A stretch of 64,000 bases of DNA from the human T2T-CHM13v2.0 reference genome, Homo sapiens: NCBI RefSeq assembly GCF_009914755.1, contig NC_060944.1; one strand, 5' to 3'. Below the pieces are notes generated by a model that saw nothing but the letters and a program-made list of their open reading frames with translations, searched no databases and was not told where the DNA came from. Of this stretch, positions 11,038-38,509 are shown piece after piece. The position numbers and the translations under genes are program-made. Position 1 is the stretch's first letter; each line of letters begins with the position of its first letter.

Positions 11038-12153
11038 AAAAGTGAATCTTTTTTTTTTTGTACTTTAAGTTTTAGGGTACATGTGCACATTGTGCAGGTT
11101 AGTTACATATGTATACATGTGCCATGCTGGTGCGCTGCACCCACTAACTCGTCATCTAGCATTAGGTATATCTCCCAATGCTATACCTCCCCCCTCCCCC
11201 CACCCCACCACAGTCCCCAGAGTGTGATATTCCCCTTCCTGTGTCCATGTGATCTCAGTGTTCAATTCCCACCTATGAGTGAGAATATGCAGTGTTTGGT
11301 TTTTTGTTCTTGCGATAGTTTACTGAGAATGATGATTTCCAATTTCATCCATGTCCCTACAAAGGACATGAACTCATCATTTTTTATGGCTGCATAGTAT
11401 TCCATGGTGTATATGTGCCACATTTTCTTAATCCAGTCTATCATTGTTGGACATTTGGGTTGGTTCCAAGTCTTTGCTATTGTGAATAATGCCGCAATAA
11501 ACATACGTGTGCATGTGTCTTTATAGCAGCATGATTTATAGTCCTTTGGGTATATACCCAGTAATGGGATGGCTGGGTCAAATGGTATTTCTAGTTCTAG
11601 ATCCCTGAGGAATGGCCACACTGACTTCCACAATGGTTGAACTAGTTTACAGTCCCACCAACAGTGTAAAAGTGTTCCTATTTCTCCACATCCTCTCCAG
11701 CACCTGTTGTTTCCTGACTTTTTAATGATTGCCATTCTAACTGGTGTGAAGGCATGGGCAAGGACTTCATGTCCAAAACACCAAAAGCAATGGCAACAAA
11801 AGACAAAATTGACAAATGGGATTTAATTAAACTAAAGAGCTTCTGCACAGCAAAAGAAACTACCATCAGAGTGAACAGGCAACCTACAAAATGGGAGAAA
11901 ATTTTCACAACCTACTCATCTGACAAAGGGCTAATATCCAGAATCTACAAAGAACTCAAACAAATTTACAAGAAAAAAACAAACAACCCCATCAAAAAGT
12001 GGGCGAAGGACATGAACAGACACTTCTCAAAAGAAGACATTTATGCAGCCAAAAAACACATGAAAAAATGCTCATCATCACTGGCCGTCAGAGAAATGCA
12101 AATCAAAACCACAATGAGATACCATCTCACACCAGTTAGAAAAGTGAATCTTT
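11038..12153 (-). mobile_element. Young L1 (L1PA2-like), twin-primed 5' inversion (copy A)
   Basis: 3' segment on the minus strand ~11052-11749 (ORF2 C-terminus 11262-11735 plus 3' UTR); inverted segment on the plus strand 11750-12140; 14-bp TSD aaaagtgaatcttt at 11038-11051 and 12140-12153. Confidence 0.97.
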
Positions 12154-14319
12154 CAACCCATGGACATCTCTCTCCATTTATTTAGAATTTAGTTTCTCTC
12201 AGAAATGTGTTATAGTTTTCATACATCGTCCTTTATTTTTGTAGTTTCAATTCATAGGTCCTTTACATTTTTGTCATATTTATTCCCAAGTACTTCATGT
12301 TTGTGATACTGTTGTAAATTGTATTTTTTTAATTGAGATTTCCAATTGTCTGTGGCAAATTGACTTTTTATATTAATCTCAAATCTGAAGTACACTAAAT
12401 TTATTTACAAGTTCAAGATGCTTTTTTCTGGATTCTACATAAATAATCATGTCTTCTGCAAAGAAAATTTTGCTTCTTCATTTCCAATCTGGAAGTTTTT
12501 TCTTTCTTTGTCTTGCCTTATTCTATTGGCTAGAAGCTCTAATACAATGTGGAATAAAAGTGGTGGGAGTACACATCTTTGCTTTGTTTCTGATCTTAGG
12601 GAAAAGCATTTGATCTTTCAACATTAAGTATGATGTTAGCTGTAGGTTTTTGTACTGTCCTTTATTAGGCTGAGGAAGTTTCCTTCCATTAATACTATGA
12701 GTTTGCTGAGAGGTTAAATCAAAAATGAATGTTGAATATTTTTAATGCGTTTTGCTGCATCTATTGAGATGCTCACATTTTATTTTTTATTTTATAATAT
12801 GGTGAATTACATCAATTAAGTTTGAGTATTGAAGCAACGTTGCATTTCTGGGAAAAATCCCAATTAATCATGATGTGTGTGTGTATGTGTGTGTATGCAC
12901 ATACATGTGTATATATGTGTATATTAGTTAAATTTCACTTGTCAAAATCTTGTTTATAATTTTTATTTGTGTTCATGAAATATTTTTATCTATAATTTTA
13001 TATTCTTGTAATATTTTACTTAGGTTTGGATATAGGCTAATATTGACCTCATCTAACGAGTTGGGACATAGTTCTCCCTATTCAGTTTTCTACAAGAGTT
13101 TGTATAAAATTGTCATCATTACCCCCTTAAGTGTTTGGTAGAATTCTTCAACAAAACCATCTGGACCTAAAGTTTTCTTTGATGGAACGTTTTTAAACAA
13201 CAAATTAAATTCCTTTAATAGATATAGGGATACTCTGGTTATATATTTCTTCATGAGTAATCTTTGGTAGTTGATGTCTTTCATGGAATATTGACCATTT
13301 TATCTAAGTTGTTGAGCTTATTTACATAAAGTTGTTTATAATATTCCCTTATTAACCTTTTAAAATTGTATTATCTACATTAATGTCACCTCTCACATCT
13401 GATATTGGTAATTTGTGTCTTCTATCTTTATTTTCTAGTCAGCCTCACTAGACACATATCAATTTTTTAATCTTCTCAAAAAGACACCTTTTAGTTTTAT
13501 TTTTTCTATTTATTTTCTGCTTTCTATTTTATTGATTTCTGTTCTAATGTTTTTTCTACTTATCTTGAGTTTAATTTGGGTTTTTTCCCTAGTTTCTTAA
13601 CCTGGAAGCTGTGATCTTTGATTCAAGACCTTTCTTCTCTTCTAATATCAGCATTTAGTACTATAAAATTCACCGTAAGTATTATTTAGCAGTATATTGT
13701 AAATTCAATGTGTTGCGTTTTATTTTATTTAGTTCAAAATGCTTTCTAGTTTTCATTTGTTTTCTTCTTTGACCCATGGGTTGTCTAAAAGTGTGTTACC
13801 TTGTTTGGAGATTTTCCAGAAATCTGTTATTGATTTATAAATTACTTTCATATTTTTGCATGATTTAAATCTTTTGTAAATTTATTAAATCTTGCCTTGT
13901 AGTCCAGAATACAGTCTATCTTGATAAATGTTCAATGTATATTCTACCTCCACTCAGTGGAGCATTTTATAAAACTTAATTAGGTCAAGTGGGTTGATAG
14001 TGTTGTTCAGATATTTATATTCTTATTGATTTTCTGTCTACTTAGTCTACAAATTACTGAGAAATAGTTATTTAATATATTTGACTATAGTTGCAGATGT
14101 GTACATTTTTAATAATGTTATCAGTTATTGCCCAGGTATTTTGAAGTTCTGTTATTAAGGGCATAAACCCTCAGGACTGTTATATTCTCTTGAAGAATTG
14201 ACTCCATTATGACTATGAAATTACAACCTTTCTGTCTAGTAATATTCTTTGACCTGAGATTTACCTTTCTTCATTAATATAACTGTTCTAGCTTTCTTTC
14301 GACTGGTGTTAGTATAGTA

Positions 14320-14858
14320 CAGTCTGTTCTTATCATTTGTGGTAGCTGTGTTTTATAAAGTCACTGTGAACACTGAAGTAGCAAATATTGAACCATTGCA
14401 CCTAAAAGAAATATGTATATACATATCTCATATAAATTATAATCTTAAATCCTAAAAGTAGTTCATCATGATGTATTCTATTTGCTTGATATTTAAAAAG
14501 AGAAAATAAGGTTCAAAAGTGTTAAGTGACTTAACTGAGGTTGTCTCACTAACAAGTGACAGTTAGGATTCAAATTTTATTCAACTGACCCAAGAGTGTT
14601 CTTGCACTACACTGTACTATCCCCTACTTTCTTTATCCTCTGGTTATCTCTTTTTAAAAGCTAAAACAAGAATACAAAGTATTGCCTTATTTGTTCTCAG
14701 CCAGTAGTCGGGGGTTAGGTGACTCAAATTTTTTGCTATTCTGTGCATCTCCACAGATGGCCACAAAAGCACCAAGAGTATTGATTTTGAAGTTACAAGT
14801 AAATCTTACCAAGTAAGCTAATTCACAAATATGGAATCCTCAAATCATGAGAATTGTG
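14320..14858 (+). mobile_element. MER6-family (TcMar-Tigger) non-autonomous DNA transposon with internal MIR-like segment
   Basis: 5' cagtctgttcttatcatttgtggtag...cactgaagtagcaaatattgaaccattgc; 3' gagtattgattttgaagttaca...caaatatggaatcc; TA on both sides (14318-14319, 14859-14860). Confidence 0.75.
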
Positions 14859-36995: not shown

Positions 36996-37009
36996 AACTT
37001 ACAAGGGAT

Positions 37010-38509
37010 GTGAAGGACCTCTTCAAGGAGAACTACAAACCACTGCTCAAGGAAATAAAAGAGGATACAAACAAATGGAAGAACATTCCCTGCTCATGGG
37101 TAGGAAGAATCAATATCATGAAAATGGCCACACTGCCCAAGGTAATTTACAGATTCAATGCCATCCCCATCAAGCTACCAATGACTTTCTTCACACAATT
37201 GGAAAAAACTACTTTAAAGTTCATATGGAACCAAAAAAGAGCCCGCATCACCAAGTCAATCCTAAGCCAAAAGAACAAAGCTGGAGGCATCACACTACCT
37301 GACTTCAAACTATACTACAAGCCTACAGTAACCAAAACAGCATGGTACTGGTACCAAAACAGAGATATAGATCAATGGAACAGAACAGAGCCCTCAGAAA
37401 TAATGCCGCATATCTACAACTATCTGATCTTTGACAAACCTGAGAAAAACAAGCAATGGGGAAACGATTCCCTATTTAATAAACGGTGCTGGGAAAACTG
37501 GCTAGCCATCTGTAGAAAGCTGAAACTGGATCCCTTCCTTACACCTTATGCAAAAATCAATTCAAGATGGATTAAAGACTTAAACGTTAGACCTAAAACC
37601 ATAAAAACCCTAGAAGAAAACCTAGGCATTACCATTCAGGACATAGGCGTGGGCAAGGACTTCATGTCTAAAACACCAAAAGCAATGGCAACAAAAGCCA
37701 AAATTGACAAATGGGATCTAATTAAACTAAAGAGCTTCTGCACAGCAAAAGAAACTAGCATCAGAGTGAACAGGCAACCTACAAAATGGGAGAAAATTTT
37801 CACAACCTACTCATCTGACAAAGGGCTAATATCCAGAATCTACAATGAACTCAAACAAATTTACAAGAAAAAAATAAACAACCCCATCAAAAAGTGGACG
37901 AAGGACATGGACAGACACTTCTCAAAAGAAGACATTTATGCAGCCAAAAAACACATGAAAAAATGCTCACCATCACTGGCCATCAGAGAAATGCAAATCA
38001 AAACCACAATGAGATACCATCTCACACCAGTTAGAATGGCAATCATTAAAAAGTCAGGAAACAACAGGTGCTGGAGAGGATGTGGAGAAATAGGAACACT
38101 TTTACACTGTTGGTGGGACTGTAAACTAGTTCAACCATTGTGGAAGTCAGTGTGGCCATTCCTCAGGGATCTAGAACTAGAAATACCATTTGACCCAGCC
38201 ATCCCATTACTGGGTATATACCCAAAGGACTATAAATCATGCTGCTATAAAGACACATGCACACGTATGTTTATTGCGGCATTATTCACAATAGCAAAGA
38301 CTTGGAACCAACCCAAATGTCCAACAATGATAGACTGGATTAAGAAAATGTGGCACATATACACCATGGAATACTATGCAGCCATAAAAAATGATGAGTT
38401 CATGTCCTTTGTAGGGACATGGATGAAATTGGAAATCATCATTCTCAGTAAACTATCGCAAGAACAAAAAACCAAACACTGCATATTCTCACTCATAGGT
38501 GGGAATTGA
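37010..38509 (+). pseudogene. L1 ORF2 C-terminal 499 aa (open, but promoterless and lacking EN/RT core)
   Basis: [29 protein letters not shown] through the Cys-rich [18 protein letters not shown] to FSLIGGN. Confidence 0.95.

What the first reader, a model, noticed from the sequence alone, without database searches (positions are those of the whole stretch)
11750..38021. Predicted ~26-kb L1-mediated invertible segment; TSDs show this haplotype is in the ancestral orientation
Established: NAHR between near-identical inverted repeats inverts the intervening DNA, and such inversions can recur and be accompanied by conversion. Seen: each L1 is still bracketed by its own TSD pair (aaaagtgaatcttt for A, gaaattaccatagaag for B), so this allele is un-inverted or has flipped an even number of times. 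Inference: a crossover in the 491-bp tract would give hybrid elements with swapped TSDs. The left element would have A's 3' UTR followed by B's ~2.2-kb 5' part; the right element would have A's 390-bp inverted piece followed by B's 3' UTR. Short reads would miss this. I cannot tell whether such an inversion is already catalogued.
Basis: inference. Interest (0 to 1): 0.75.

Follow-up and report, generated by a model that had tools for sequence, protein, structure and literature searches.

The report
Gene conversion between neighbouring L1 copies
Two old jumping-gene (L1) copies 26 kb apart on human chromosome 20 face each other and share 491 identical bases, likely because one was copied over the other; the DNA between them is in its original orientation, and the flip they could in principle cause is absent from the three inversion lists that could be checked, so this is likely an ordinary case.

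Summary
The anatomy is real; the inversion is only predicted. Two 5'-inverted (twin-primed) L1 copies, A (11038-12153) and B (35814-38793), each keep their own target-site duplication. Their 3' ends form 701-bp inverted arms, 26,272 bp apart, with a 491-bp perfect tract. The tract exceeds chance: none of 861 pairs of related L1 copies reached it (longest run 436). Both copies share a rare base seen in 1 of 44 kin. On both sides of the tract A and B keep their own lineage markers at 7 of 7 sites. That points to one-way ectopic gene conversion, probably A to B, with no retained crossover. An older host L1 is colinear across the left breakpoint, confirming the ancestral orientation independently. 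No inversion is listed here among 373 regions from 82 haplotypes, 612 inverted-repeat candidates or 49 human-chimpanzee retrotransposon inversions. Two larger panels could not be read. Verdict: a known kind of event; a rare inverted allele is possible (about 10%) but unsupported.

The parts
11038..11051 (.). Outer target-site duplication of element A (14 bp; its last 3 bases run into the poly(A) tail)
   Evidence: exact match to 12140-12153
11049..11749 (-). Element A, 3' piece: end of ORF2 (about aa 1114-1275), 3' UTR, short poly(A); left inverted arm
   Evidence: 97.86% to 38022-38722 over 701 bp; ORF2 numbering computed
11259..11749 (-). Left copy of the 491-bp homogenised tract; its inner end coincides with A's twin-priming junction
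   Evidence: 0 mismatches in 491
11750..12139 (+). Element A, inverted 5' piece (ORF2 about aa 989-1118); in DIRECT orientation to 37645-38036 of B; overlaps the start of the 3' piece by 15 bp, the last 2 of which fall in the TSD
   Evidence: 11 mismatches in 392 bp; junction strings
12140..12153 (.). Inner target-site duplication of A
11750..38021 (.). Segment between the arms (26,272 bp) that a crossover would invert; ancestral orientation in this haplotype
30767..32595 (+). Predicted lncRNA LOC105376989, the only annotated gene in the segment
   Evidence: annotation supplied with the finding; not tested here
35814..35829 (.). Inner target-site duplication of B (16 bp)
   Evidence: exact match to 38778-38793
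35830..36992 (-). Element B, inverted 5' piece (middle of ORF2, two open stretches of 109 and 225 aa)
36993..38777 (+). Element B, 3' piece: open frame matching LINE-1 ORF2p aa 773-1275, 3' UTR, interrupted poly(A)
   Evidence: 503-aa frame, 1118 bits to PDB 8uw3_A
38022..38512 (+). Right copy of the 491-bp homogenised tract (likely the recipient)
38778..38793 (.). Outer target-site duplication of B
8577..9811 (-). Old host L1 (about 62% identity to young copies), part outside the segment
   Evidence: ruler locus L009 positions 682-1950
12238..13146 (-). Same old host L1, part inside the segment; colinear with the outside part
   Evidence: ruler locus L009 positions 60-518 map to 12649-12238; tblastn extends it to 13146
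9836..10966 (+). Separate older L1 3' fragment (about 72%) inserted in the host L1 beside A

Best explanation
Two twin-primed L1 copies lie in inverted orientation 26 kb apart and share 491 identical bases, likely because a break in one (probably B) was repaired by copying the other: ectopic gene conversion without a crossover. Shown: two insertions with intact TSDs, different lineage markers on both sides of the tract, a perfect tract with a shared rare base, and ancestral orientation of the segment. Inferred: germ-line break repair from the neighbouring copy (intrachromatid loop or sister/homologue), well after both insertions and within the last few million years; direction A to B at roughly 10:1 by a crude likelihood. 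The pair is a possible NAHR substrate for a 26-kb inversion, and its 392-bp direct homology for a 25.9-kb deletion, but an inversion at appreciable frequency is unlikely.
For: 0 mismatches in 491 bp against 22 in the other 575 shared bp, p = 1.9e-6. Among 58 kin copies picked on the outer segment, 42 cover the tract: 0 of 861 pairs are identical there (minimum 1, median 13). Longest identical run over the arm: median 119, maximum 436; for A-type by B-type pairs maximum 260 of 441 pairs. Of 40 scored genomic matches to the tract (516 candidates) only A and B were perfect. A and B share 38157C, seen in 1 of 44 kin not picked on the tract. At 7 of 7 lineage-diagnostic sites, 2 in the direct piece and 5 in the outer arm, A has the A-kin state and B does not, so nothing was swapped outside the tract. 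Rare states: B 16 in 1,210 bp outside the tract against 1 in 491 inside (p = 0.033); A 4 in 575 against 1 in 491 (p = 0.38). A's inverted piece has no near-identical sibling (best other hit 677 against 704 bits; 40 scored of 1,349), so A has aged outside the tract. Host L1 colinear across the left breakpoint: 164 ruler bases against about 179 left in the window once the two later inserts are subtracted (arithmetic). No inversion in three lists.
Against: Only one haplotype was seen; no ape or second human sequence was available to show the unconverted state. No lineage-diagnostic site lies inside the tract, so the direction rests on mutation load alone, and the kin sets were picked on the outer segment, which biases what counts as rare there (5 of the 7 diagnostic sites lie in that segment). 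A chr4 copy (L003) differs from the tract at only 1 of 491 bases and shares a 458-bp run, so long runs do arise between young copies by ancestry. The genome search scores only 40 candidates. The tract runs flush to the inner end of the homology, as the inverted-haplotype rival also predicts. The inversion tables of the 65-genome and 1,019-genome panels were not readable.
Confidence: 0.8

Rival explanations
1. An inverted haplotype exists at low frequency or existed in the past. A crossover near 11258/38513 made the hybrids, and allelic conversion from that haplotype (or crossover-associated conversion followed by a flip back inside the tract) left the present standard allele with identical inner arms.
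For: The tract runs from an internal boundary exactly to the inner end of the homology, as this route predicts. L1-L1 inversions of this size are known: 21 between human and chimpanzee, more than half over 10 kb (PMC2603318). LINE-1 inversion pairs have a median similarity of 97.1% (PMC9675761), like this pair. Pure transposon pairs were not added blind to the 612 candidates, so this site was not genotyped there.
Against: Not listed in 82 haplotypes (95% upper bound about 3.6% if detection were complete). It needs two or more events where one suffices. No swapped markers in the outer 198 bp. Repeat/inversion ratio is only 701/26,272 = 0.027, and recurrence rises with that ratio (PMC7263195). 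A 491-bp tract inside a 701-bp homology touches an end easily (inference).
Confidence: 0.1
2. The identity is chance or shared ancestry: both copies kept the family state in this stretch, or each was converted by a third copy.
For: L003 on chr4 is 1 mismatch from the tract; two unrelated kin pairs come within 1 mismatch. The tract was noticed after the fact among many L1 pairs in the genome.
Against: A and B belong to different lineages at 7 of 7 sites; such pairs never exceeded a 260-bp run in 441 comparisons. They share a state found in 1 of 44 kin. Permutation 2 to 13 in 200,000.
Confidence: 0.05
3. The tract arose during A's insertion: its new cDNA, whose 3' end is the twin-priming junction, invaded or copied nearby B.
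For: The inner end of the tract coincides with A's junction at 11749/11750.
Against: Both copies would since have gathered separate changes, about 4 expected in A's tract alone, and none separates them. A has no near-identical sibling that would make its private bases inherited (40 scored of 1,349). The junction is also simply where the homology ends.
Confidence: 0.03
4. Assembly or polishing error in this reference: reads of one copy corrected the other.
For: Not tested; no reads were on hand.
Against: Long accurate reads span 0.7-3 kb repeats with unique flanks (general knowledge), and the flanks of the tract keep 22 differences.
Confidence: 0.02

Closest known systems
Non-allelic gene conversion between neighbouring transposon copies (review PMC6598467, passages seen, citing Aleshin and Zhi 2010 and Kass et al. 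1995 for Alu)
   Same: A one-way identity tract between nearby copies of one family whose flanks keep separate histories.
   Different: L1 rather than Alu; 26 kb apart, beyond the under-10-kb range in which the review reports raised rates for Alu.
L1 recombination-mediated inversions (L1-RMI; Lee et al. 2008, PMC2603318) and LINE-1 TEMR inversions (PMC9675761)
   Same: Two young L1 copies in opposite orientation, about 97-98% alike, more than 10 kb apart.
   Different: The defining products, chimeric elements with unmatched TSDs, are absent here; this is a substrate, not an event. 26 kb is long against the 5.5-kb median of LINE-1 inversions in PMC9675761.
Recurrent inverted-repeat inversion polymorphisms (PMC7263195; PMC13629690)
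   Same: Inverted repeats with a stretch of perfect identity and a sign of exchange between them.
   Different: Only one orientation known; repeat/inversion ratio 0.027. Of 319 inverted duplication pairs tested blind, 6 (1.9%) proved polymorphic in 54 people, a rough prior for pairs chosen on geometry alone.
Twin-primed (5'-inverted) L1 insertions
   Same: Both A and B: TSDs, poly(A), inverted 5' piece, short overlap at the junction.
   Different: Nothing unusual; 1,047 such insertions were called in one panel (PMC12350158). Because A is 5'-inverted it offers B both an inverted and a direct homology.

Membership tests
Twin-primed LINE-1 insertion | LINE-1 ORF2 sequence | tested here: met
   B's 503-aa frame matches ORF2p aa 773-1275 at 1118 bits; A matches that frame at 88-96%
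Twin-primed LINE-1 insertion | Whole element bracketed by one TSD pair, poly(A) at the 3' end | tested here: met
Twin-primed LINE-1 insertion | 5' piece inverted, with a short overlap or gap at the junction | tested here: met
   A: 15-bp overlap; B: about 8 ruler bases of overlap (L009 472-479). The mechanism itself is recalled; the original paper was not held
L1PA2 subfamily | Diagnostic bases against curated subfamily consensus sequences | not testable with these tools
   No repeat library on hand. The label rests on a recalled 3' UTR marker and on 96-98% identity to genomic kin; A is of the younger type, B of the older (inferred)
Non-allelic gene conversion tract | Identity tract beyond chance inside diverged paralogues | tested here: met
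Non-allelic gene conversion tract | Shared derived state in both copies | tested here: met
   38157C in A and B, 1 of 44 kin; 38480T is shared too but common (12 of 58)
Non-allelic gene conversion tract | Flanks not exchanged | tested here: met
   TSD pairs intact; 7 of 7 lineage sites unswapped; host L1 colinear
Non-allelic gene conversion tract | Unconverted state seen in an orthologue or another haplotype | not testable with these tools
   The genome has no relatives in the search tool
L1 recombination-mediated inversion (L1-RMI) | Opposite-orientation L1 copies at both ends of the segment | tested here: met
L1 recombination-mediated inversion (L1-RMI) | Chimeric elements with non-matching TSDs | tested here: not met
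   both pairs match
Inversion polymorphism, recurrent by NAHR | Both orientations observed | tested here: not met
   absent from three lists; two larger panels unreadable
Inversion polymorphism, recurrent by NAHR | SNPs shared between orientations | not testable with these tools
   no population data

The most novel reading that the evidence does not exclude
The flush 491-bp tract is the fingerprint of a rare or extinct inverted haplotype: an uncatalogued 26-kb L1-mediated inversion 77-104 kb upstream of CBLN4 that exchanged sequence with the standard allele. Identity tracts running to the inner edge of inverted transposon pairs would then mark hidden inversions genome-wide.
Probability: 0.1. 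Interest if true: 0.45.

Novelty: new member of a known kind. Interest (0 to 1): 0.2.

Why it matters
Modestly. It is a clean single-locus example of L1-to-L1 ectopic conversion across 26 kb, and it shows that the two copies have likely paired at least once, so the site is a fair candidate for rare inversions or 25.9-kb deletions. No protein-coding gene or annotated regulatory element lies in the segment (supplied annotation), so even a real inversion would likely have little effect. If the novel reading held, such tracts would be a way to find inversions from one reference sequence.

Tried and rejected
Double flip without conversion: rejected, since it swaps bases and does not homogenise them, and no swap is seen outside the tract. 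Donor typing by lineage markers: no diagnostic site inside the tract. 38157C as a lineage marker: its 28 carriers include both types (19 and 9 at site 38519), so it is recurrent. Orientation check at B's empty site: the right flank is a dispersed repeat, the left flank matched only itself, so this is left open. Rfam: one Alu-type SRP match at 49352-49468, outside the segment. Catalogue look-ups that gave nothing usable: Porubsky 2022 not held; supplement of PMC12350169 cut before its inversion tables; supplement of PMC12350158 cut, no hit for this site in what was held. A first search of PMC13629690 for 'chr20' was empty because the table writes '20'. Paper searches naming the locus listed no report of it; a risperidone GWAS variant between CBLN4 and MC3R lies about 140 kb beyond the segment (distance from my approximate GRCh38 position). 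Earlier scan findings were not available.
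Full report
Observation. The window is T2T chr20:57,846,001-57,910,000 (supplied annotation). Element A spans 11038-12153 and element B 35814-38793. Each is bracketed by one exact TSD pair, of 14 and 16 bp, and each motif occurs only at those two places in the window. Both are 5'-inverted L1 copies. B's 3' piece holds an open 503-aa frame matching LINE-1 ORF2p aa 773-1275. A's 3' piece (11049-11749, minus strand) matches B 38022-38722 as an inverted repeat with 15 mismatches in 701 bp, and A's inverted piece (11750-12141) matches B 37645-38036 as a direct repeat with 11 mismatches in 392 bp. 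The inner 491 bp of the inverted arms are identical. No other homology of 200 bp or more in the window exceeds 87%. The name L1PA2 is recalled from a 3' UTR marker and was not tested against a repeat library.

Orientation. The TSD argument is sound and is the published test for retrotransposon-mediated inversions (PMC2603318, passage). A second line agrees. A sits inside an old minus-strand L1. With a natural young copy as ruler (L009, one of 9 loci tried; 6 of them cover both sides and agree), ruler positions 60-518 map inside the segment (12649-12238) and 682-1950 outside it (9811-8577), on the same strand and in order. The 164 ruler bases in between fit the roughly 179 left once A and a second insert (9836-10966) are subtracted. 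The same check at B stayed open, but one ancestral breakpoint implies the other for a simple inversion.

Is the tract more than chance? Yes. There are 0 mismatches in 491 bp against 22 in the other 575 shared bases (p = 1.9e-6); random placement gave such a run in 2 and 13 of 200,000 trials. I fetched kin of A and of B chosen on the outer 200-210 bp, 29 each (the top 30 of 40 scored, self removed). Of these 58, 42 cover the tract. None of their 861 pairs is identical there (median 13 differences), and the longest identical run over the arm is 436 overall and 260 for the 441 A-type by B-type pairs. A search with the tract itself scored 40 of 516 candidates and found only A and B perfect. Against this, a chr4 copy differs by one base, so young copies can come close by ancestry. 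A and B also share a base (38157C) that 1 of 44 kin carries.

Mechanism. At all 7 sites that separate A-kin from B-kin by 55 points or more, A has the A state and B does not, in the direct piece (2 sites) and in the outer arm (5 sites, the stretch on which the kin were chosen). So the two are separate insertions of different lineages and nothing was exchanged outside the tract. A flip and flip back would swap a stretch and keep the differences; identity needs copying (inference). The simplest account is one ectopic gene conversion without crossover. B carries 16 rare states in 1,210 bp outside the tract and the tract only 1 (p = 0.033), while A's load (4 in 575) fits the tract (p = 0.38); the Poisson likelihoods are 0.082 for A as donor and 0.008 for B. 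A is therefore the likelier donor, weakly, and the kin selection biases these counts. With no difference since the event, its age is under about 3-6 million years at assumed rates of 1.0 or 0.5 x 10^-9 per site per year. A's inverted piece has no near-identical sibling among 40 scored of 1,349 candidates, so A aged before the copying, which argues against an event at insertion.

Is the inversion catalogued? Not in what could be read. PMC10150506 Table S1 (373 inverted regions, 41 unrelated samples, 82 haplotypes, T2T coordinates; passages, all 24 'chr20' places) has 9 chr20 rows; the nearest are at 49.6 and 66.1 Mb. That caps the frequency near 3.6% if detection were complete. PMC13629690 Table S1 (612 candidates, drawn from 58 validated inversions, 1,528 calls of five studies, InvFEST predictions and inverted duplications; abstract and sections 4, 7, 13 read) has no chr20 row at GRCh38 55.9-56.1 Mb by prefix search, while a control row was found (13 of 14 places of one prefix shown, the last lying behind Table S1). 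Two limits apply. The GRCh38 position (about 56.08-56.11 Mb) comes from recalled CBLN4 coordinates, consistent but not a lift-over. And that study dropped 622 regions beforehand and did not genotype this site. PMC2603318 Table S1 (49 human-chimpanzee inversions) has 2 chr20 rows, at hg18 29.4 and 8.8 Mb. The inversion tables of PMC12350169 and any in PMC12350158 were cut or absent in the held supplements, and Porubsky 2022 was not held; these could bear on the claim. Searches naming the locus listed no report (listings only).

Likelihood of inversion. Such pairs do invert: 21 L1-L1 inversions between human and chimpanzee, over half longer than 10 kb (PMC2603318, passages), and a median similarity of 97.1% in LINE-1 inversion pairs (PMC9675761, passages). 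The same paper cites over 100 bp of perfect identity as needed for NAHR, which this tract meets. But recurrence rises with the repeat/inversion ratio (PMC7263195, passages), here 0.027, and only 6 of 319 inverted duplication pairs tested blind were polymorphic. A single conversion explains it with fewer events.

Comparison and verdict. It works like non-allelic conversion between neighbouring transposons (review PMC6598467, passages) and meets three of its four tests; the fourth needs other genomes. It fails the defining test of an L1-mediated inversion, since no chimeric element is present. It is a new instance of a known process in an intergenic stretch holding one predicted lncRNA. Interest 0.2; a hidden inversion about 0.1 likely.

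Noticed in passing
window 11750-12141 and 37645-38036: The same two elements also form a 392-bp direct repeat at 97.2%; a crossover there would delete 25,895 bp, including LOC105376989. It shows no conversion tract (longest run 87 bp).
   Followed up: partly
window 8577-13146: Three nested L1 layers: an old minus-strand copy (about 62%), a plus-strand 3' fragment at 9836-10966 (about 72%) and element A about 70 bp from it.
   Followed up: partly
window 11189-11201 and 38570-38582: A degenerate PRDM9-type 13-mer (recalled motif) lies in the G-rich 3' UTR of both elements, about 57 bp beyond the outer end of the tract. It is probably present in most young L1 3' UTRs, so it is not specific.
   Followed up: no
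window 35362-35677: A degenerate 33-bp tandem array (about 9-10 units, 80% matches) ends about 140 bp left of B.
   Followed up: no
window 38794-39200: B's right flank is a dispersed repeat of about 400 bp with copies at 70-78% identity on many chromosomes; family not determined.
   Followed up: partly
L003 (G000:C4:161436714-161437204): A chr4 L1 differs from the tract at 1 of 491 bases and is A-type at the lineage sites (2 of 198 from A, 9 of 198 from B in the outer arm), but 10 of 377 from A in the direct piece.
   Followed up: partly
L010 and L024 (G000:C9:79.88 Mb and 77.66 Mb): Two 5'-inverted L1 copies with the same junction coordinates and 1 difference in the tract, opposite strands, 2.2 Mb apart; likely parts of a segmental duplication.
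   Followed up: no
window 22204-22567 and 24138-24501: Direct repeat of 364 bp at 86.5% inside the segment; not identified.
   Followed up: no
window 59557-60663: A further older L1 3' fragment (about 75%), plus strand, outside the segment.
   Followed up: no
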